64,000 nt of DNA from Eledone cirrhosa. Taxonomy: Eukaryota. A program made the translations under genes and the position numbers. Below are positions 6,791-61,260 of this stretch, piece by piece (the stretch's first letter is position 1; each line of letters starts with the position of its first letter). The notes under the pieces are model-generated. The model was not told the origin of the DNA, ran no database searches, and saw nothing but the letters and a program-made list of their open reading frames with translations. The stretch spans positions 14,074,001-14,138,000 of the forward strand of contig OZ024765.1 of assembly GCA_964016885.1 (NCBI GenBank), read 5' to 3'.

Positions 6791-7454
6791 ATCCCACATG
6801 CACACATTTATCTGTGTTTATATCATGACTAATGCACTGTTCACTTTCCTGACATTTGTACATTATTCTATGTACTATACATGCACCTTTGATGAGTTGT
6901 AGTGCGCCTGAGCACTTTGCCGCATAGAGTTACGGCCCTTTATGATCTGAATTCAAATCCTGCCGAGGTTAACTTTGTCTTTCATTCTTACGGGGTCGAT
7001 AAAATAAAGTACCAGTAATGTACTGGGTAATTGCTGGCCTTGTGCCAAAAGTAGAAACAATTATTATTATTATTACATTATTTAAAAACCTCTAATAGTT
7101 TCTGATTTAGGTGCAAGGCCAACAATTTTGGGGATGGGAAAGTCGATTAAATCGACCCCAGTGCATTACTGGTGCTTTATTTTATCGACCCCGTAAGGAT
7201 GAAAGGCATAGTCAACCTCGGTGGGATTTGAACTCAGATCGTAAAGGGGAGTAACTCTAAGCTGCATAGCACGACATCCGACCCTCTACCTATACTACCT
7301 ATCCACATACAATAATACTATTACAAACACGCACACACTCACATAAAATAGCGACGACATACGCTTTTTCATAAAATCATACGCATACTCACGCACATAT
7401 ACATAGAAAACATAAACAACACGCACATGTATTCACGCAAGTACACACACAACT

Positions 7455-14218: not shown

Positions 14219-15403
14219 GTTTGCAATCAAATTTTTGGAAACATTAAATTTCTTTTCACCTACGAAGGTCAGCTGAAAATTTCATAGGCTGATTAGGAAG
14301 GAGTGTTGCTAGAGCTGTGAAATCTTAATTTTAACTCTTATTAATAACTGTTGAAGTGCATGGCCTAGTGGTAATTGAGAGATCACAACTCCGATACTAT
14401 GAGCATGTGGTTAGAATGTTAGAAAGCCCTGGGCTTTCCTGATAATTTCTCCTGAATGAAACAGTTCTAGTCCTGTAGAAGCCATTTCTATATTAAATAT
14501 TTATACTCTGCTATGTATTGAGTACTTTACTTACTATGGTTACCCCCGATTGAACCCGGGATAAACATATCTATTTATATATATATATGTGTGTGTGTAT
14601 ATATATATATAGTAACATTTATATATGTTTGATATAATTATGTAGGGTAGTACTGAGTACTAGCCGGTTACCGGTATGACAAAAGGCTCAATGCAAATTT
14701 TCAAGTGTTTTACCGAGCCGGGATACAAAGTGTTAAAACGATCAAATTTTTAGTTTAGAACATTTATTTGCTGACAATTGTTTCTTCCAGAGGGAAGTCT
14801 GGAATCATCAGAGCATAGGGAATGTCGAAACATGTAACTAAAATCCCAGTCATTTAGAACATTTAGGGTACATAGTTGTTATTAGTGTCAAAGGCATCAT
14901 GTGGAGAGTCAGGAGTTAAAAAGATGTTATGCTTGAGAGAACACAATTACAGGCAGCACTGGTTGGAAGTGTAATAGGTATAAGTAAAAGTAAAAAGCAG
15001 AAGCAAAAAAAACGCAGGCAAAGAAGTTATAAGCAAGGACAATTGATGTACATGCAGGAGTCAATACAGTCAATAATGCATGTATGCAGTTGAAATAAAC
15101 ATATTTTGTGTGGGGGTGTTAAAGCAGGTTATATTTGTTATGAACATTTCAGATAGTGGGTAATTTGTTAGAGAGGCATGTGGTGATAATGTAGGTATTT
15201 GTTATGTAAGGTGTAATGTAAAGCACTAGATAGAGTTGGATATGTGATTTTCATTTAAGTGTTTTTGCCTCTAACAAATTGCATGTTCACTTAAAAATAA
15301 TTTTTAAATAATTAAAATATACAGACATGTATATAATGTGAAATGAAACCGGAAGGCCCATATATATATATACGTGTGTGTGTGTATATATATATATATA
15401 TAT

Positions 15404-17574: not shown

Positions 17575-17619
<45 letters not shown>

Positions 17620-17800
17620 AGTGCCGGCGCCCGACACTTTATAATATAGCCACCCCAAGTATCGAGTACTCTGTTGGGTAATGGTCTTACTAGTTTTATC
17701 TGGTTCTATCCTGATATATGTATATTGCAGACTTGTTATAGTTGTATGTTTTGTTTTTTAATATATCAGTGCCTCTCAATTTTCCATTTTATTCTCACAG

Positions 17801-22145: not shown

Positions 22146-22331
22146 TTAGCTATCTTTCAGTCCCCAGATTAAGTCCACCAGGGTAGTGGAGTCTTTCTTA
22201 GTCCGGTCCTTGAACGAATTTGTGTGGTTGTACATCCTCGATTTAAAGGTCGTGGATGTTGCACCGATGTAGTTGTGCCTTCTGTTACGTGTCTCAACCA
22301 CGCATTTGTACACAATGTTTTGAGGGCACAC
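22146..22331 (-). mobile_element. Penelope-like GIY-YIG endonuclease fragment
   Basis: NIVYKC...YIGATSTTFKSRMYNHTNSFK...STTL...IWGLK. Confidence 0.8.
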
Positions 22332-23790: not shown

Positions 23791-24428
23791 GCTTTCTTTT
23801 CTTTACCTCGCTAAGATCTTCACGAAGGCCAGTGTGATATATTGATTTGTGGACCTACTTATATGTGATATGGTCTGTGTATGTATGTATGAGATACCCA
23901 GTGGTATGGTGGTATCATTTCCTTTCCAATATCTCTGTCTTCACAGTGAGGGTCTGTCTTATGTGATATAGTCTATGATCGACCCTCTAAAATCCCAAAC
24001 GGGGAGTACTATGAAAATAAGTGCCCCGAAATGAGGCAAAATAGAGATTTTACATAATAAAAGCTATACCTATTTTCACAAGCGTTCTGCTATGTGTAAG
24101 ATTTTGTGGTATCATCTCATTTCTAGTGCCTGTATCTTTATCTCTGTCTCTGCGGTGTTTCACCAAATCTCGTGTTTTCACATTCACACAAGCAATAAAA
24201 GTTGAGAAGAACAAACAACCCCAAAATCTTTCATATAAAAATCACCTGTTTTATTATTTAAAAAAAAATTAAATCTCCCCAAATCTCATGTTTTCATATA
24301 AATCACCTAATATATAGAATATATATAATAAATAAATATAATAAATAGAGGAATGTAAATGCTAAAGGGTTTAAGATACAAAAATAGGCAAGAATTGACT
24401 TTTGGCCCACTCTGTATGCGTATGTATG

Positions 24429-24465
<37 letters not shown>

Positions 24466-24645
24466 GGTTTCTATGGGACTAGAACTGTTTAATTCAGAGG
24501 AAATCATCAGGAAAGCCTTGATGATTTGCTTCGAATGAAACAGTTCTAGTCCTGTAGAAGCCATTTCTATATTAGATTTTGTATATACTCTACTAATATA
24601 TTGAGTACCCCTGATTGAACCTGGGACTCACATATATATGTAAAT

Positions 24646-24700
<55 letters not shown>

Positions 24701-24722
24701 CATACATATATACATACGCATG

Positions 24723-25268
24723 CAGAGTGGGCCAAAAGTCAATTCTTGCCTATTTTTGATTCTTAAACCCTTTAGCATTTACATTCCTCTATTTATATAC
24801 CATTGTATTTTAACGTTAAACACTTTATCTCACATAATAACGAATATGAAATTTTGATATTGTGAATTGGCAGTATCGGTAGAGGGTCGGACGCCATGCT
24901 TTGACGCATAGAGTTATGGCCCTTGCCATTCAGAGTTCAAATCCCGCCGAGGTTAACTTTGCCTTTCATCCTTACGGGGTCGATAAAATAAAGTACCAGT
25001 AATGTACTGGGTAATTGCTGGCCTTGTGCCAATAGTAGAAACAATTATTTATTTTGAGAACAATACCTTAACATCAGTATGAGTAGTTAGTTACAGCCAG
25101 TTTGAACAGCAAGAGATGAGGGGGATTCTGGCTGGATATGGCCGGTTTAAATGCTAAAGGGTTAAACTAAATTTCATAATGGGATCTTGTTTTTATTCGA
25201 CTTTAATCTGAAAGTTAAAAAAAAATATGAATTTTTTTTAATAGGAAGTGGCTTTTGGCCCACCCTCT
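24723..25268. mobile_element. Tc1/mariner-type MITE with nested piggyBac MITE and SINE B
   Basis: TIRs cagagtgggccaaaagtc / ggcttttggcccaccctc. Confidence 0.6.
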
Positions 25269-27593: not shown

Positions 27594-30224
27594 CTACAAC
27601 ATCATTTCACACAACATGTCCATGGGAAAATTTAATAATAGGAATAGCAACTGCACACACACTAATAGGGATTGTAACAACAAGAGTAACCCGCACCACA
27701 GAAATGACCATAGGAACATTAAAGGAAACAAATCACCAGACATAAAAAACAGAAATAGAAGAAGAAATAATACATTTTTCAACCCTCCTTTCAATTTAAA
27801 CGTCTCTACCAACCTTCCTAGGGCTTTCTTCTCACTACTAGATAAACACTTCCCATCCGGCCACAGGTACCACGGCCTTTTAAACAAAAACACTATTAAG
27901 ATCTCATACTCTACTACGCCTAACTTAGCATACCACATAGCTAGTACAAATAAATGAAAAATTAATTCTTACTTCCAACAAACTAAATCACAACGGTCGA
28001 TAAACCTTCAAAATAACAGTCAAAGTAACATTATAACAAATAACCGTAATATCAATGGAAATAATAGTAATAGCACTAGTGGAAACATTAACGCTGCGTA
28101 CCACAACCCGCATAACCATAACCCTATAGCTAACCTCCAAACTTCTACACAGCATAGTAACCGGCAGACTAGCACCCAGAGTATTTGTAACTGTAGATCA
28201 AGTAGAACCTGCCCTTTAGATAAAAAATGCTTAACCAAGGATATCATATACTCATGTACAGTCACAACTAACAGCTCTTCTGAAACCAACATAGGCTCCA
28301 CTTCTAACTGCTTCAAAACTAGATACAATTCGCACCTCCACTCTTTCAAAAAACACAGTCTAGCCAACTCCACTTCACTATCTAGCTACATACACTATCT
28401 AAAAACTAAAAATAAAATATATACACTTAAATGGGAAGTGGTAGGTAGTGCAACATCGTACAAACCTGATAAATTTTGTAACCTCTGTCTACTAGAGACC
28501 CATACTATCATCTTCTCTAAACATAATCTCCTTAATAAAAAATCAGAAGTGTTCGCAAATTGCCAACACCGCTTCCGACACTCGTTCCAAAACTTTAAAC
28601 CCTATATATAATAATGTCAGACTGGAACCGGCACCACCCCTAGCAATTAACATCAGTAGCACACCTTACACCTCACATCCACACCCATCTCTATACTCTA
28701 AAGATAATACTGACAGCATTTTAGTACCACCTACCCTGGGAATACCCCCTTGTACCTCTAATACTGATATCTCGACCGTGGACTACTTATTCTGCATTGC
28801 ACAAATATAAGATTAGTATAAATTGGGGACACGGTACTGGTTGCGATAGCATAGTCCTGTGCATGGATTACCACCAAGAGATAGATTGATGATTAGATAG
28901 ATAATCGTATTGTTAAGTGATTATATACTGTAAGCGATCAGTTCATTGAATTATGCACGTACTCATCTTGATGTGGACTCCTTTAATACCTATTAATAGA
29001 CTCCACTCTAGCTTGGAGATGTGATACATAATTGATTTATATTTGAGACGGGGGTTGTCTATTGCTTGATGGCCAGACTAGTGCATTTATATGAGAGATC
29101 GGATCTCCAGACCTTACTGGAGATGCAGGCAAGCAATGACCCGGAGCCTACCGGGTGGCATATATAATAGTGGGACCATACCAGGTCCTACTGTTATATT
29201 ACATCTGCATGGAGCAGTGACTTGAGAGTCTGACTCCTCTTATGGAACGTTCAGATATGACACCCCTTAATTAATGGATGGTAATCATCCTAATATATAC
29301 ACCCTTGTACTTCTTAATGGACAACTCTCTAACCTATAAATGGGTAACATACTCTAGATATTAGTTATAACTTCACATGATAGGCACGTATTTGAATCAC
29401 CATTAATGTAGTTTAGCATAGTAATGTAACTAAGATAACTAGCTAGTTACCTCCCCTTACGCATTAATTCCCCTTAGTCATTCAGGCAATTCCGGAATCT
29501 GGACAGCATGATATATTAATTAAGAACCGACTGGATACGGTTTATAGCTTGACTATATGGCGAACCACTGCGAATTATACGATAGACGCGTGTTCTCTAT
29601 ATATATATTGCGTCTCATGGATTATGTGAGTGGTGGTGTGAGCAAGGACAGTGATACGACCTTGCCTACGATACAATAAGGTTTATAGTATGTTGAAGGT
29701 TTTTGATATTTTGCCGTTTCCCCGCATCCGAGACTGTATATCATACAGATGTATGACAATAAATGACTTAATAATTCAGCCTATATAATAAGATCGATTG
29801 CCTGCTTCAGCTGCCTGACCCTGCAAATATCATTCTGACGCACTCTAATCATGTATAGATAAGACACGCGTGCATGCTACACGGGAGATTGTTTCATACA
29901 CTGACTACTCTAAGCTTTCCTCTTGCTTTATCTACATAGACTGCCAACGCTTCATGTTTATCTTTATTTTCACTCTTATTTTCACTCTTGTTTTTATTTT
30001 ATTTTATTTTTATCCTGTAACCTTTATATGTAAATTGCCATGCTATATCATTTGATGAATGTCACCCCACTGTTGATCAATATGCGCATATGTTTTATGT
30101 GTCTCTTGGGTTGAAAAGGAGGTCAAGTATGTTATAAATAGTTGCTCCGAAGAATCCAAACCTCGGTTTGGAGGAAACAATTGTAAGCAAATAAATGACT
30201 TAAACTGAACTTTGATTACTGTAA

Positions 30225-31651: not shown

Positions 31652-31694
31652 GTAAGTATTAAAACCCTTTTTTTACCTTATTTCTAATTATATA

Positions 31695-31760
31695 TTGGGT
31701 CGTCAAGGATGAAATTTGTAGGGAAAAAAAACATCTCTACAAATTTCATACTTGACCCAA
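31695..31760. mobile_element. Tiny mariner-type MITE/hairpin
   Basis: TA|TTGGGTC...ATGAAATTTGTAG / CTACAAATTTCAT...GACCCAA|TA. Confidence 0.6.
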
Positions 31761-32645
31761 TATAACAAGAGCGCAACATATTCCATTGGCAGGCCACTTT
31801 GAACATTGGAACACTATTAGAGCCATTAATATTTATTAACCCTTTAGCATTTACATTACTTTATATTTATTATTGTATTTTCACAGTAAAGGCTTTACCT
31901 CACATAATATCTCACATAACATTTACATTACTCTATATATACTATTGTATTGTCACAGTAAAGGCTTTACCTCACATAATATCTCACATAACATTTACAT
32001 TACTCTATATATACTATTGTATTGTCACAGTAAAGGCTTTACCCCACATCATCATCATCATCGTTTAACGTCCATCTTCCACGCTAGCAGGGGTTAGACG
32101 GGAGTTGTCCCACTTGAGGCAAGGTTGGTAGGGTGACCGTGTCTTTCTCGTATAGGACTGTCTGGCAGGTTTTCTACGGCTGGATGCCCTTCCTAACGCC
32201 AACCACATTTACAGTGTGGAACTGGGAACGTTTTACCGTGTTACCTACACGGCCACATTACAGCGTGGACTGTGTTTTTTTTGTCGTGACACCTACACGA
32301 TCTTGATCTCATTATCTCATTTATTTGGACTGGATGTGGTACCAACTTCATAGAGAGAGGGTGGTGTTAATGGGAGGATAGGGTAGGGGTAGTGGATTGG
32401 GGTGTATATTTGGTTAAGAGGTGCCTACTGACTAGGTTTCGCATTGTACATAGGCAAGGCGCGTCTTCTGTATTACTGCGTAGCACCAAAGATCTCGGTC
32501 CAGTGACATTGTCTTAGAAAGGTGCAAGTGTGTAAGGTCGGAATTTATCAGATCGTCCCAGGTTTTTCTGGGTCTACCTACTCTGTAACTACCATCAATT
32601 TTGATCGCCCTGCAATTTTTTATTCAGCTGTCGTCTTTCATGCGC

Positions 32646-53073: not shown

Positions 53074-53508
53074 CCTCAGACCGGGCGATGTGTTGTTTCC
53101 TTGAGCAAGACACTTTATTTCACATTGCTCCAGTTTACTCAGCTGTAGAAATGACTGGGGTCCCTATCATTCCACTGCAAAGTGGTCGTGGAGGTGCCAC
53201 GGCAAAAAAGCACCCAGCACTCCCTGTAAATGAGGTTGGTGTTAGGAAGGGCATCCAGCTGTAGAAATCAAGCCAGAATCAGTTCCCGTCCCACCCTTGC
53301 AAGCAGGGAAAAAGTGGACGTAAAATGAAATGAATGAATGAATGAATATATATAGTATAGGAAGTTTTGGTACCAAATCAAACACTCTATCCACAGGCAG
53401 AGTGTATATAATAGAAAAAAAACGAGGAAGTTTCGTTTACATATGTAAAATATTTATTGTGTAGAACATATATTGAAACGATTGTAATATGTCAATAAAA
53501 TTTATATA

Positions 53509-53586
53509 CAGGGTGTCCCCAAAAATGTATACATACTTTGATTAGAACGTTGTTGAAGTAGGTATACATTTTTTGAGGACACCTTG
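53509..53586. mobile_element. Tiny Tc1-type MITE
   Basis: TA|CAGGGTGTCCCCAAAAAATGTATAC...GTATACATTTTTTGAGGACACCTTG|TA. Confidence 0.7.
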
Positions 53587-55164
53587 TATATGCTGCACCT
53601 GTAACTTCGATATATATATATATATCATATGTCTATATATATATTGTATGTATATATATATATTATATATGTACTTATCATATGTCTATATATTATATAT
53701 ATATATATTATATATATATATTATATATATATATATTATATATGTATATTATATATGTATATTATATATGTATATTATATATATATATATTATATATATA
53801 TTATATTTATATATATATTATATTTATATATATATTATATATATATATATATAATGGATATGAATCGAAGCTTTAGCTGCTATACAGCAGGTACTAATTG
53901 AGTTGTTTGAGGCAATCACAAATCACTCAATGGATCGATAAGCTTTTTACAACGAATTAAAGTTATAACTATAAATACGACTACTTTACTCAGTAGAATT
54001 GCCGTGACTATGTCCATAGAATTTAATTTATTTTATTGATATTCAAGTTATCGGGAGTTAAGATAGACAGGTAATATGAAATTGCTACACGGTGACATAA
54101 TTAGTTTTACACCGGTATTTTGAAAGCCATTTTAGATATGCTTATGAAAAAGGTATGTAAAGTTTTGTTGACATGTTAGGATACCTTGGCTTTTTTTAAT
54201 TCGTAGAACTCTTCATAAATATGTTATCTATGTTAAGAATATATATAACAAAGATCGTATCACGATTATTGGTTTGTCTCTTTACAACCAAAAAATACTT
54301 CATATGTCTCCCAGGCACTCCAAATATGGTCCTTCTTGTCATTGTATATCTAGTATATTTCTAAATATGAATTAATGTAGAAATATATACACTCCTGAAA
54401 TATCTTTCAACAGCAATACAACTCAACATCGCTACCCCACTGGTGCTGTCAGCCTCATTGTCTTCGTACACCTCACAGACATTCCACATACATTGTATAT
54501 CTAGTATATTTGTACATGTACATGTTAGCCTCTTCATACACAGATAAAACATGTTAAATAACAGTTATATGTAATTAATAGTTTCTCTCTAAATATAAGA
54601 TTTGTCAATTAATTGGCATTTGATTCGACAATTTAAAGTTACCGGGGAAGAGTCGGTAAAATAAACAAAAGGTAATATGAAATCCTTACACCGGTGACGT
54701 AAATATGCTTTACACCGGCATTTTGAAAACCATCTTGGGCATTGCGTTTATTTTAAAGAGGTATATAAAGTTTTATTTGTCGTGTAGGGTAGGATATGTC
54801 TGTACATTGATGTATATAATTCATAGAGCCCTTCCTTGTTAAATATTCTTAATATACGTAACACCGCATCAGAATAACTGAATTGTCTCTCTACAATATC
54901 TGAAAATACTTCGTTCCCAGACATATGTAGTTTGTTCTCTTCCAAATCTCTATTTGAGGTCTTATCACAAGACCCCAGCCCCTGTCAGTTTAAAGGTTGT
55001 CCCTGTTCAACAGCGGACCATACGTGTATATGTTTGGTAAGTCTGAGGAAAACGCACATAGCCTCCAAAAGTACTTTCAGATGAAAGATATCGAAGTTGT
55101 TAATGTTTCTCTTAAACCGGTGTGTGGTCTTTCTCTCCGCCACATTTTAAAACAACGAAGGACA

Positions 55165-56062: not shown

Positions 56063-56096
<34 letters not shown>

Positions 56097-56387
56097 CTCC
56101 TTCGTTATATATATATATATATATATATATAACGAAGGAGTTGTGGTAGCGACCAGATGGACCATAAAGCACCAGAGTACTCAATACTTAGGGTAGTAGA
56201 GTGGGTAATATGAAAATGTATGACCCCGACGGCAGAGGTCAAGCCGTTTTGACGGCTATTTCTGGACTAAATTAGAATCTTTAGTGTGGTAAACAAATCA
56301 GATTTATTTACCAGGCTAAAAATTATAATTTAGTCCAAAAATAGCCGTCGAAACGGCTTGATCTCTGCCGTCGGGGTCATACATTTT

Positions 56388-56426
<39 letters not shown>

Positions 56427-56564
56427 GTATATATATACTAATTTCAACTAGTAAGACCGTAATTCAGCAAAGTACTCAATACTTGGGATAGTAGAGTGTA
56501 AATATAGCAGAGAGTCAGGAATTTGGTGTCGAAACTACTTGAGCTCAGCCGTCAGGTCCTGTTG

Positions 56565-56595
<31 letters not shown>

Positions 56596-57814
56596 GTGTC
56601 GGGACCTCGACAGCTGAGCTCTTGCCGTTCCAACAGCTAGTCCCAGACTCTTGAAACAGCAAGACCTCAGCTGTCGGGGGGTCCCGACCCTTTCATATAA
56701 CCATACTCTCTTACCCCAAGTATCGAGTATTCTGGTGAGTAATGGTCTAAACAGGTTTTTACTGTATCCATATCCATCTATCTATATATATGCATGTATG
56801 TGTGTGTATGTACGTATGTGTATGTATGTATATGTGTATATATATATGTATATATATCCTGCAGGAGTAAAAACAAAACCTGTTAAAAGGCAAAGGGGCT
56901 CTTAAGAGTCAATGGCCATCCAAAATCACCGGGAGAGATGACCCCTTAGCCTTTGTCAAGGCAGAATTCTAGGAGAAGGAAAACTCTGATATAACACCTG
57001 CAACCCTGATGGTATCCAATGATGTTAACTTGTCCTTTTTGGTAAATATCATCTTGGTTAAGAGAGTGGGACTGGCTTTGTGCAGTGCCTTTGCTCACTA
57101 TAAAAGCTTCACGGCACAGGCATTGCTTTATATCTGGAGATCTCTCTGCACTTGTCATCACATGGTACTATGGGCCCAGCACTATGTGTCAATAATTGTC
57201 ACAAGTGTAGTGTAGTACCAGAGTTTTCAAGTCGCTGGCTGGACTAAAAAGTCACACTCGTTCAGTGCATCGGTAGGGGTTCTCCTACATGGATATAAAG
57301 TAGTGGCCGTACTCGAAAACGAGTTGGCAGCCACCATATATATATGTATGTGTGTGTATATATATACATAGTAGTGAAAGAGTGAAGAATAACATGGTCA
57401 GCTGTACAAAAGGGTTTTATTTACATGTTATTCTTCACTCTTTCACTACTATTACTCGAAGAATAACCTACATGAGAATTCTCGCAAACTCGCTACCTAA
57501 CTAAGGAAACCCCTTGTTGAGGTCAAACAACGCCATACGTTAAAACTATCCATAGTACAGAGTACTCACTACCTCTAACTGGATTACCTAAAATGATAAC
57601 TTATCCCATATATATATATATGTGTATGCATATATATATATGTTTGTATGTATATATGTATATGCATCTATATTTATGTGTGTATATGTATGTATATGTA
57701 TGTATATGCATATATATATATATATATGTGTATATGTATGTATATGCATATATATGTATATATCTATGTGTATATATATATATATATATATATCTATGTG
57801 TATATATATATATA

Positions 57815-58517: not shown

Positions 58518-58620
58518 TATGTATATACATTTATATATGTGTGTGTATGTATATATATATATATATCTAGATCCGAACTGGCTGTTGAAATAGCAGGAGC
58601 TCAGCTATCGGATCACAAAT

Positions 58621-58664
<44 letters not shown>

Positions 58665-58768: not shown

Positions 58769-60285
58769 TCGAAATATAATACGTGAATGTAATAGGTAAA
58801 ATCCATGGGGCTGAAAATCGAGCCCCGAGGGCGTACGGAATAGACCAGCTCTATACAGTGGTGAACCTCAAACCTGAATAAATATATATATATATATATC
58901 TATATATATATATCTATATATATATATCTATATATATATATCCAAAATTAAGATAAATCAAAGTGAATTTAATCTAAATAAAAATTATGGGTGTCATGCC
59001 AGACCAAAACTCTGTTGAAAGGACTTGACTGCTGTTTCTAGTTGTCGATAACCCTATTCACACGAAGCTGGTATGATGTGTGTATTTTTAGTAGATACAG
59101 CATGTGTTACTGGCCAGTCGCTGATTTGAACTTAATGTGTAAACACAGATGGCTGGACTTCTTCCTTGTTGATAATCCAAGTATCGGCCTCCGTGATTTA
59201 CCATTCGATTAATTGGTGAAATATATTTCTTTAATGGAATAAATACAGGGAAGATTAATCATATTATAAGGTATCTATTTTTGAAGTTCTAGTTAACTTT
59301 ATTTAGTTACCTACCTAGCTATGTGTGCTTACACACTTGTAAAAATTATCCCCTGTGATTGTTTCATATGTTTATTTATATGTTAATCAATTTCTAGTTG
59401 TTATATATATATAAATTTCTCATTCTATCTTCTGATGATTTTTTTTACTACTATATCAAGTGTAAAACTAATAATATATTTCTTCATTGTACTGTGTTGT
59501 TTGCTTTATTATTTCTGTTTGCCTTGTGTATATATATATAATTGTTTCTACTTTTGGCACAAGGCCAGCAATTATCTCAGTTTATTACTGGTACTTTATT
59601 TTATCGACCCCGCAAGGATGAAAGGCAAAGTTAACCTCGGTGGGATATGAACTCAGATCATAAAGGGCTGTAACTCTTTGTGTCAAAGCGTGGCGTCCAA
59701 CCGTCTAGCGATACTGCCAATCCACCATATATATAATGTTACACAATATGATGGTGTAGCTGTAGTCTACAAATATATTGACTTCACACAAGGTTCTATG
59801 ATGTAAATTTAATAATAAATTTGAAATTCATATTCAATTCACCCGTTAAATATTTATATTTACAGTTTACCAATATAGAAATATCAAATTTTCTATATAT
59901 CTTTACTTTTTAAATATTCTCTATTATCTCTCATACTGTTTCTTTATTATTTCAGAGTATCAGATGACATTGACCTAAAGGAATATTATACATCAGCTAT
60001 ATCATCAATACTAAAGTGTACAGTTATACAGAAACAATATATAATCCTGTTTATATAACTCTATGGTGGAATTACTGTGAAATATTTCCTTACAACTGAG
60101 ATTAATAACATTTCTCTTCTTCATTGTCTGGCATATTTTGTATTGTAATTCAACTTGGATAAATTTTACAAAGAAAATATTTGCAGCATCTTCAGGTATT
60201 AACAAAGATCCCAGTCGATGGAAACAGCTGAACTGATATATCAGTATATTCTGAGAAAAGGAAAATTGTGGAAAAAAATTATTAT

Positions 60286-61260
60286 ATGAAAGGTTTACAT
60301 ATTCAAGAAGAGAAATCAAAAGAGATGGAGAAATCATCTTACCAGTGTGATATCTGTGGCAAATCATTCGCTGAAGATAGTAGTTTAACTACTCACAAAC
60401 ACATTCATACAGGAGAGAAACGATACTGCTGTGAGATCTGTGGTAAATCATTCTCTAAATGTGATAATTTAACTAAACACATACGTATTCATACAGGAGA
60501 GAAACCATATCACTGCGACATATGTGGTAAATCATTCTCTGAATGCAGTCCCTTAACTATGCATAAACGTATTCATACAGGAGAGAAAAAGCATCACTGT
60601 GATATCTGTGGTAAACCATTCTGTAGAAATGGTGACTTAATTAAACACAAACGTATTCATACAGGAGAGAAACCGTATCACTGCGACATCTGTGAGAAAT
60701 CATTCACTGAAGGTAGTAGCTTAATTGTACACAAACGCATTCATACAGGAGAGAAACCATATCACTGCGATATCTGTGGTAGATCATTCGCTGGAGGTAG
60801 TAGTTTAACTACTCACAAACGCACTCATACAGGAGAGAAACCATATCACTGTGATATCTGTAGTAAATCTTTCTCTCGAGGCAGTGACTTAACTAGTCAC
60901 AAACGCATTCATACAGGAGAGAAACCATATCACTGTGATATCTGTGGTAAATCATTGTCTAAAAGTAGTGACTTAACTACTCACAGACGCATTCATACAG
61001 GAGAGAAAGAACATCACTGTGACATCTGTGGTAAATCATTCTCTAGAAATGATCAATTAACTAGACACAAACGCGTTCATACAGGAGAGAAACCTTATCA
61101 TTGCGACATCTGTGAGAAATCATTCTCTCGAAAGGATAAATTAACGACTCACAAACTCATTCACAGAGGAGAGAAACCTTATCACTGTGATAACTGTGGT
61201 AAATCATTCTCTCGAAAAGATAGTTTATCAAAACATGTAGGTCTTCATATAGAAACCTAA
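60286..61260 (+). CDS. C2H2 zinc-finger protein with 11 tandem fingers, single coding exon
   Basis: Eleven C-x2-C-x12-H-x3-H fingers with TGEKP-type linkers. First in-frame ATG at 60286; candidate upstream acceptor tttcag at about 59956. Confidence 0.93.
   Translation: MKGLHIQEEKSKEMEKSSYQCDICGKSFAEDSSLTTHKHIHTGEKRYCCEICGKSFSKCDNLTKHIRIHTGEKPYHCDICGKSFSECSPLTMHKRIHTGEKKHHCDICGKPFCRNGDLIKHKRIHTGEKPYHCDICEKSFTEGSSLIVHKRIHTGEKPYHCDICGRSFAGGSSLTTHKRTHTGEKPYHCDICSKSFSRGSDLTSHKRIHTGEKPYHCDICGKSLSKSSDLTTHRRIHTGEKEHHCDICGKSFSRNDQLTRHKRVHTGEKPYHCDICEKSFSRKDKLTTHKLIHRGEKPYHCDNCGKSFSRKDSLSKHVGLHIET

What the first reader, a model, noticed from the sequence alone, without database searches (positions are those of the whole stretch)
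56095..56785. Recurring architecture: conserved AGTACTCAATAC module plus a variable foldback hairpin, always within (TA)n
Seen: a ~60-bp module (ACCAT...AG(A/T)ACTC(A/G)ATAC...G(T/C)AGAGT) abuts mutually unrelated inverted repeats. These are a ~180-bp hairpin at 56212-56389, a ~105-bp hairpin at 56591-56695, a 34-bp hairpin at 17613-17646 and a ~97-bp hairpin at 24467-24563. The module alone occurs at about 14500 and 56470, and further foldbacks at 56095-56142 (perfect, TA-centred) and 57370-57452. Several arms contain GAAAC/GTC hammerhead-like remnants. Inference: 3' tails of several TA-targeting Penelope-like families whose integration leaves an inverted 5' copy, or an undescribed non-autonomous hairpin element. 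Either would seed dsRNA substrates for ADAR or Dicer.
Basis: partly seen in the sequence, partly recalled or inferred. Interest (0 to 1): 0.7.

Follow-up and report, generated by a model that had tools for sequence, protein, structure and literature searches.

The report
Twin hairpins at Penelope retrotransposon ends
These mirror-shaped repeats are cut-short ends of Penelope-like jumping genes lodged in TA repeats, and their shared module is a small predicted RNA hairpin, kept by very distant relatives, that likely tells the enzyme where to start copying, which would explain why each mirror copy has a tail on one arm only.

Summary
Each unit is the 3' end of a Hydra-clade Penelope-like element (PLE) in (TA)n: hammerhead ribozyme plus tail, joined head-to-head to a second 5'-truncated copy. 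Long copies run into an RT/GIY-YIG ORF, and one sister subfamily is young (ORFs ≥99% identical). Module density gives about 185,000 copies; 18 of 37 random copies have a foldback, against 9 of 600 controls. That architecture is published. Not found in my literature searches: the module's core is a covarying bulged hairpin, present twice between ribozyme and start codon in Hydra elements from other organisms (about 36-43% protein identity). The two fixed insertion ends (+20, about +100) each lie about 3-5 nt before one hairpin. All 8 complete young inverted insertions have one end of each kind, and either arm can be kilobases longer. This favours twin priming at two hairpin-marked sites over self-priming. 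ADAR/Dicer action is untested. The scan noted this hairpin before on other DNA of this genome (e1-8664228, e1-8665533); I saw those notes only after my own tests.

The parts
56096..56107 (+). 12-nt inverted stub of the family-A tail end on the far side of the (TA)n tract (the perfect TA-centred foldback)
   Evidence: matches the tail end seen
56130..56298 (-). Family A tail-bearing arm: hammerhead 3' half, hairpin HP1, tail to the fixed end near +100, then (TA)n
   Evidence: (row L208)
56179..56202 (-). HP1, the bulged hairpin at the core of the module (4-bp outer stem, TT bulge, 4-bp inner stem)
   Evidence: covariation
56301..56392 (+). Family A tail-less arm, ending at +20 after the cleavage triplet into (TA)n; GAAAC-stem III-GTC at 56350-56372
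56440..56515 (-). Family E tail-bearing arm (short, tail end eroded); HP1 at 56474-56497
56516..56562 (+). Family E tail-less arm, longer than its partner; hammerhead 3' half at 56531-56553
56591..56776 (+). Family B unit: inverted tail-less arm (about 56591-56635, minus strand), tail arm with hammerhead 3' half 56653-56675 and degenerate HP1 56705-56728
57368..57609 (+). Family F, a separate Hydra-type family: inverted tail-less arm plus an arm with a longer tail; the canonical HP1 is not matched
   Evidence: RT pieces 32-45% identical to family A in L191, L194, L206
17611..17715 (+). Family C unit (B-like): very short foldback, HP1 with its 5' half deleted, tail into TA-rich DNA
24465..24630 (+). 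Family D unit: foldback turning at the start of the hammerhead, HP1, tail with an internal deletion
14422..14570 (+). Family D 5'-truncated copy: 8-bp micro-foldback, whole hammerhead with mutated core, HP1 from 14505, tail
58565..58625 (+). B/E-type tail-less arm alone in (TA)n

Best explanation
Each unit is the 3' end of a Hydra-clade Penelope-like retrotransposon inserted in (TA)n, and the head-to-head foldback with one tail is likely made by twin priming, in which two nicks in the TA tract likely prime reverse transcription at two fixed RNA sites, each likely positioned by a predicted bulged RNA hairpin just downstream. SHOWN: link to RT/GIY-YIG ORFs; two fixed ends (+20 and about +100 from the hammerhead cleavage triplet); one end of each kind per inverted insertion; independent arm lengths; two hairpins, HP1 (+25) and HP2 (+103), between ribozyme and ATG (+190); their conservation and covariation. 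INFERRED: the hairpins act as RNA and bind the RT-EN protein. The UA-rich site 5' of each hairpin pairs with the nicked (TA)n 3' end. The two cDNAs are joined at their truncated ends by microhomology. The tail, which holds HP1, is simply the stretch between the two starts, and HP2 is not copied at a terminus. Multi-unit arms come from multimeric or circular RNA. Confidence is about 0.97 for the identity as PLE ends, about 0.75 for twin priming, and about 0.6 for hairpins as the positioning signal.
For: Long family-A copies enter RT and EN coding sequence. 88 scored ORF matches of 60,306 candidates, about 40 with 784-807-codon open frames (my count of rows). The 717-aa ORF has copies 99.0-99.8% identical and seamless tandems of 3528/3531 bp. 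Family D joins a 50-55% identical ORF (L367); family E joins an ORF C-terminus (L379, L382). Of 175 A-type ends followed by TA, 75 lie at +20 and 94 at +94 to +103. Head-to-head pairs: 59 of 74 have one end of each kind, 4 have two tails, 0 have two tail-less ends, 11 unclassified; random sample 9 of 10. All 8 young inverted insertions with both ends visible have +20 and +103; in the 7 large ones the tail-less arm is longer in 4 and the tail arm in 3, by up to several kb. Arms match in subfamily in 37 of 40 against a permutation mean of 7.7; rare variants are shared in 1 of 103, so arms are not homogenised later. Hairpin: in 20 instances anchored by position and 3' sequence only (18 from other organisms), 36 of 40 first-two inner pairs pair with a 2-nt bulge against 10, 10, 13, 17 of 40 for other registers; outer stems GCTC/GAGC 15, GCAC/GTGC 2, ACTC/GAGT 1; G-U 4 against A-C 1 on the sense strand. 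Twin hairpins precede the ATG in L298, L308, L309, L310, L311, L316 and L132. 30 of 35 inverted arms stop 3-12 nt before a hairpin, mode 5. PMC11167929 showed in vitro, for a Poseidon-clade PLE, both-strand cleavage and extension, two internal start sites bounding the tail, and a predicted dimer.
Against: No biochemistry or RNA data here. Single hairpins are weak folds (z -0.5 to -2.4). The descriptor was designed after I saw the published Hydra consensi, and I picked the 20 anchors after viewing; L302, L309 (3' copy), L312, L318, L321 and L322 show no HP1 after the ribozyme, L312, L318 and L322 because they end in TA/ATT first. G-U asymmetry (4 against 1) is thin. Short foldbacks often turn at near-symmetric points around -35 to -45, which self-priming or snap-back also predicts. 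4 of 74 pairs carry two tails. Family F lacks a clear HP1, and family D's HP2 is reduced and seen in one copy. Subfamily concordance is inflated if subfamilies were active at different times. In the Anolis element the start site is not homologous to the cut DNA, so primer pairing is not established. The pairs include query-selected loci.
Confidence: 0.68

Rival explanations
1. Endonuclease resolution on DNA: one long or folded-back cDNA is made, and the GIY-YIG domain recognises the module as DNA (or as a cruciform) and cuts TA-like sites beside it, giving the two fixed ends.
For: PMC8557442 ascribes the tail to EN-mediated resolution. PMC11167929 cites D. virilis work in which the tail was needed for EN recognition of plasmid DNA. 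Both ends sit at TA-like motifs next to a conserved sequence.
Against: It does not by itself give one end of each kind in 59 of 74 pairs and two tail-less ends in none. Genomic targets are plain (TA)n without the motif. Stems covary and tolerate G-U on the sense strand. In vitro starts bound the tail in a related PLE.
Confidence: 0.15
2. Self-priming (snap-back), on an antisense template as proposed in PMC3846280 or on the first cDNA, makes the inverted arm as a copy of its neighbour.
For: Short units turn near-symmetrically at self-complementary spots. Arms share subfamily. Passages of PMC3846280 argue this from junction palindromes.
Against: In young insertions the two 5' truncation points are unrelated and either arm may be kilobases longer, for example a 129-bp tail arm against an arm of about 10 kb in L133/L134. 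A tail cannot be copied from a tail-less arm, nor a long arm from a short one.
Confidence: 0.12
3. A self-contained non-autonomous hairpin element or MITE with fixed TIRs and a TA target duplication.
For: Most copies are 150-270 bp, non-coding and very abundant.
Against: Loop and arm length vary per copy; copies grade into RT/EN ORFs; about half lack any foldback.
Confidence: 0.04

Closest known systems
Hydra clade of C-terminal EN+ Penelope-like elements (Craig et al. 2021, PMC8557442), including Hydra-1_Obim
   Same: Single RT + C-terminal GIY-YIG ORF, DKT, CxCX5C linker, CxxC and CxH in the EN, (TA)n target, hammerhead, partial tandems, inverted 5'-truncated copy, tail on one end.
   Different: Unit of 3.53 kb with a 3' UTR of about 1.2 kb; RWR for RWK; tail about 80 nt, not 30-40; U3-A8 core with a long stem II in family A. 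By eye a different family from Hydra-1_Obim. The twin hairpins are visible by eye in that paper's File S7 consensi (Amil-2, Ajap-1, Ajap-2, Crog) but are not mentioned in the sections I read.
Poseidon element PAc of Anolis carolinensis (Frangieh et al. 2024, PMC11167929)
   Same: Two internal RT start sites bound the tail; both strands are cut and extended; AT-rich targets.
   Different: PAc starts inside the ORF in an AC-rich stem-loop not homologous to the target. Here both ends lie in the 5' UTR at UA-rich sites, each just 5' of a repeated bulged hairpin. The inverted structure is not discussed in its main text; its supplementary figures were not seen.
PLE hammerheads with U3-A8 core, Schistosoma Cercyon (Cervera and de la Peña 2014, PMC4209133)
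   Same: Type I hammerhead in the pLTR, palindromic loop III, U3-A8 covariation, opposite-strand pairs 100-700 bp apart.
   Different: Here sister families in one genome carry U3-A8 (family A) and C3-G8 (family E) with similar stems II and III, and a 5-bp stem III.
L1 twin priming (recalled, not from a call)
   Same: Two target nicks prime two cDNAs that join by microhomology, giving an inversion.
   Different: Here the second site is fixed and structure-marked, and the two cDNAs copy overlapping sequence, giving a foldback.

Membership tests
Hydra-clade PLE | Single ORF, RT followed by C-terminal GIY-YIG-type EN | tested here: met
   717-aa ORF with YRDD and C-terminal IYQC/AYIG motifs. Pfam found nothing on the partial ORFs tested, so the assignment rests on motifs and on by-eye likeness to File S7 proteins.
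Hydra-clade PLE | DKG modified to DKT | tested here: met
   SDKTGN; SDKTKN in family D
Hydra-clade PLE | RWK motif | tested here: inconclusive
   RWR in families A and D; published non-octopus Hydra DNA was not checked for this variant
Hydra-clade PLE | CxCX5C linker; CxxC and CxH around the EN's E and N | tested here: met
   CNCPDRSIC, CNLC, CKH
Hydra-clade PLE | CCHH motif absent from EN | tested here: inconclusive
   Not evident by eye; no alignment to CCHH-bearing ENs was made
Hydra-clade PLE | Insertion into (TA)n | tested here: met
   29 of 35 against 115 of 600; every young 3' end seen runs into TA
Hydra-clade PLE | Hammerhead ribozyme in the pLTR | tested here: met
   Canonical core in D and E. 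Family A has a U3-A8 core in 55 of 59 copies with N7 free to vary, and the MFE fold gives the three-way junction. Rfam did not list it among the 150 of 152 rows shown. Cleavage not tested.
Hydra-clade PLE | Generally shorter than 3 kb | tested here: not met
   Unit 3528-3542 bp; a tendency in the paper ('generally'), not a diagnostic
Hydra-clade PLE | Placement in the Hydra clade on an RT tree | not tested
   Labelled reference proteins were only readable in a supplement and could not be passed to tools
PLE (general) | Partial tandems forming pLTRs, inverted truncated copy, tail at one end | tested here: met
MITE / fixed-TIR transposon | Fixed terminal inverted repeats and uniform length | tested here: not met
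   Arm lengths from about 10 bp to about 10 kb, one arm always with a tail
Non-LTR retrozyme | Non-coding tandem repeats each with a whole type I hammerhead | tested here: not met
   Short units are head-to-head and mostly lack the 5' core; the tandems seen encode the ORF; definition

The most novel reading that the evidence does not exclude
Hydra-clade PLEs carry a clade-wide, undescribed cis-acting RNA motif, a bulged hairpin repeated twice, that loads two RT-EN protomers at two fixed priming sites on one RNA. Twin priming is then the built-in integration mechanism, explaining the head-to-head structure and single tail of PLE insertions and, as a by-product, about 90,000 foldbacks in this genome.
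Probability: 0.5. Interest if true: 0.72.

Novelty: new member of a known kind. Interest (0 to 1): 0.5.

Why it matters
How PLEs form head-to-head inverted copies with a single tail is named as an open problem in PMC8557442. The young copies here argue against the published self-priming model for long insertions and give a concrete alternative. The twin hairpins give a defined RNA element to mutate, and a family with many intact, ≥99% identical ORFs gives a candidate enzyme. PLE RTs are the sister group of telomerase RT, so a conserved RNA element that sets the template start is of wider interest. Practically, such short units are easily mislabelled as MITEs, SINEs or miRNA-like hairpins; the descriptor found further families in the random sample. 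The element class and its gross architecture are known.

Tried and rejected
Rfam scan of 7 loci: only below-threshold miRNA and snoRNA chance hits, no hammerhead among the 150 of 152 rows shown. Pfam: nothing on three partial Hydra-type ORFs; a neighbouring unrelated PLE ORF in L035 gave RVT_1 and GIY-YIG. Viral contigs: no relative. MAFFT alignment of 25 hairpins misaligned the 5' stems and was not used for pair counts. One search chose a wrong 5' partner in 5 of 20 instances (still 30 of 40 pairs at bulge 2) and was redone without using inner pairs. end counts were spoiled by TA left in a reference and were redone. One search used wrong coordinates, fetched a different (ATC)n-tailed repeat and was repeated correctly. 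Families B and C were not linked directly to an ORF; they are assigned by their shared hammerhead half. Sequencing runs: no RNA holder listed. A-to-G burst search: 0 of 307 family-A alignments, so the scan's ADAR-scar notes were not reproduced on my loci. Arm homogenisation by gene conversion rejected (1 shared against 102 private rare variants). Literature searches for the hairpin or for twin priming in PLEs listed nothing describing it; the library lacks most subscription papers, and Repbase and Dfam could not be searched.

Full report
Observation. The window lies in a 3.0-Gb animal genome; 'octopus-type' is my inference from its repeats and a C2H2 array. The motif and all listed foldbacks are present. 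In 60 stretches of 10 kb taken at round coordinates, an HMM of the module found 37 copies against 0 in reversed sequence, which gives about 185,000 genome-wide (Poisson 130,000-255,000). 18 of 37 have an adjacent foldback, against 9 of 600 random and 30 of 1059 TA-adjacent positions, and 29 of 35 run into (TA)n.

What it is. Copies of the 56132-56392 unit share both outer ends but differ at the turn-around. Longer copies continue into RT and GIY-YIG-type coding sequence. A protein search gave 88 scored matches, about 40 with 784-807-codon open frames. The 717-aa ORF has DKT, a CxCX5C linker, CNLC and CKH, the marks of the Hydra clade described in section 11 of PMC8557442, which lists a (TA)n-targeting octopus member. 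Young copies are 99.0-99.8% identical and form seamless tandems of about 3.53 kb. In tandems the module is not a terminus: it follows the ribozyme and leads into the 5' UTR and ATG. Family D (24467, 14500) and family E (56470) also join Hydra-type ORFs. Families B and C are assigned by their shared ribozyme half only.

Ribozyme. The GAAAC/GTC pieces are 3' halves of type I hammerheads. D and E have the canonical C3-G8 core. Family A has U3-A8 in 55 of 59 copies with only N7 varying, and folds into the three-way junction (z -0.8). This covariation is already reported for Schistosoma PLEs (PMC4209133, passages). Cleavage was not tested.

Two fixed ends. Of 175 family-A ends followed by TA, 75 lie at +20 and 94 at +94 to +103 from the cleavage triplet (the spread reflects alignment into TA). 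Of 74 head-to-head pairs, 59 have one end of each kind, 4 have two tails, none has two tail-less ends and 11 could not be classed; the random sample gave 9 of 10. Among 17 young insertion sites, all 8 inverted structures with both ends visible have +20 and +103, 5 inverted ones run out of the fetched DNA, 3 are not inverted and the 5' ends of the rest were not resolved. In the 7 large complete ones the tail-less arm is longer in 4 and the tail arm in 3; the extreme is a 129-bp tail arm against about 10 kb. Arms agree in subfamily (37 of 40; permutation mean 7.7) but share 1 of 103 rare variants. Two independently truncated cDNAs from one RNA or RNP fit this. A snap-back copy, or the antisense self-priming proposed in PMC3846280 (passages), does not fit the long cases, although short units often turn near-symmetrically around -40, where either model works. 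PMC11167929 (parts 1-2 of 4 read; supplements not seen) showed two internal start sites bounding the tail and both-strand extension for an Anolis element, which supports two priming events.

The module's core. It folds as a 4-bp outer stem, 2-nt 3' bulge and inner stem, followed by ACT. By eye the same form follows the ribozyme in four published Hydra consensi from coral, sea cucumber and copepod (File S7). A descriptor built after that reading gave 36 hits in the 600 kb against 2 reversed, including further foldback-plus-tail families. In Hydra-type loci from other organisms (about 36-43% protein identity) the motif appears after the ribozyme, and twice before the ATG wherever that region is present (L298, L308, L309, L310, L311, L316). 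Six loci with a ribozyme show no HP1 after it, three because they end in TA/ATT first. In 20 instances anchored without using the inner stem, 36 of 40 first inner pairs pair at bulge length 2, against 10-17 of 40 in other registers, with compensatory outer stems. Single hairpins are weak, so the evidence is covariation, not stability. In family A, HP1 starts at +25 and HP2 at +103, 5 and about 3 nt after the two ends. Across families, 30 of 35 inverted arms stop 3-12 nt before a hairpin.

Mechanism. Most likely the RT-EN nicks both strands of (TA)n. The ends, arm lengths and hairpins are shown; protein binding, RNA-level action, primer pairing and the RNA form are inferred. The main rival is endonuclease resolution next to a DNA motif.

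Novelty. The class, (TA)n targeting, inverted copy and tail are published, so these are new members of a known kind. Searches listed no description of the twin hairpin or of twin priming in PLEs; Repbase, Dfam and most subscription papers could not be checked. PMC13282606 (part 1 of 3 and passages) reports active Penelope families in O. vulgaris with no mention of Hydra or hairpins. Earlier scan notes on other pieces of this genome reached the same hairpin reading; I saw them after and they are not independent support. The ADAR/Dicer suggestion is untested: no RNA run was listed and no A-to-G bursts were found in 307 alignments, although other scan notes report such copies.

Noticed in passing
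L136:8671-9884 (G000 C1, about 91.489 Mb): The 5' end of a young multi-unit insertion continues as at least 22 near-identical head-to-tail copies of a 55-nt piece of the ORF; looks like reiterative template jumping by the RT.
   Followed up: no
window 24341-24465 and 24672-24796: 125-bp, 94% inverted duplication of flanking DNA around the TA tracts holding the family D unit. L275 and L291 show perfect 400-550-bp palindromes of whole units with flanks. Could be fold-back repair at nicked (TA)n or assembly artefact.
   Followed up: no
L242, L252, L270, L286, L287, L289: Further families with the same bulged hairpin, foldback and TA flanks but unrelated arms; L270 has a 612-bp partial tandem next to a Hydra-type ORF end.
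   Followed up: partly
window 27772-28605 and 22149-22331: Decayed Hydra-type ORF fragments, about 36% identical to family A.
   Followed up: partly
window 60232-61260: 342-codon C2H2 zinc-finger frame on the + strand, 3.5 kb downstream; the foldbacks may lie in its transcription unit, not tested.
   Followed up: no
window 31691-31764; 53504-53591; 6915-7269: Other foldbacks: a TA-flanked hairpin family also seen in L014 and L289; a Tc1/mariner-like MITE (label recalled); two SINE-like copies head-to-head.
   Followed up: no
L035:365-2359: 665-codon open PLE ORF of another clade (RVT_1 + GIY-YIG) near a family-A insertion; no hairpin motif seen by eye in the roughly 200 nt printed at either end.
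   Followed up: partly
L306-L322: Animal-type Hydra PLEs sit in contigs filed under bacterial genomes, probably host contamination of those assemblies.
   Followed up: no
L376-L392 (G000 C5, 30.06-30.44 Mb): A cluster of at least 11 near-identical family-E ends with shared flanks, that is, copies spread by segmental duplication rather than by insertion.
   Followed up: no
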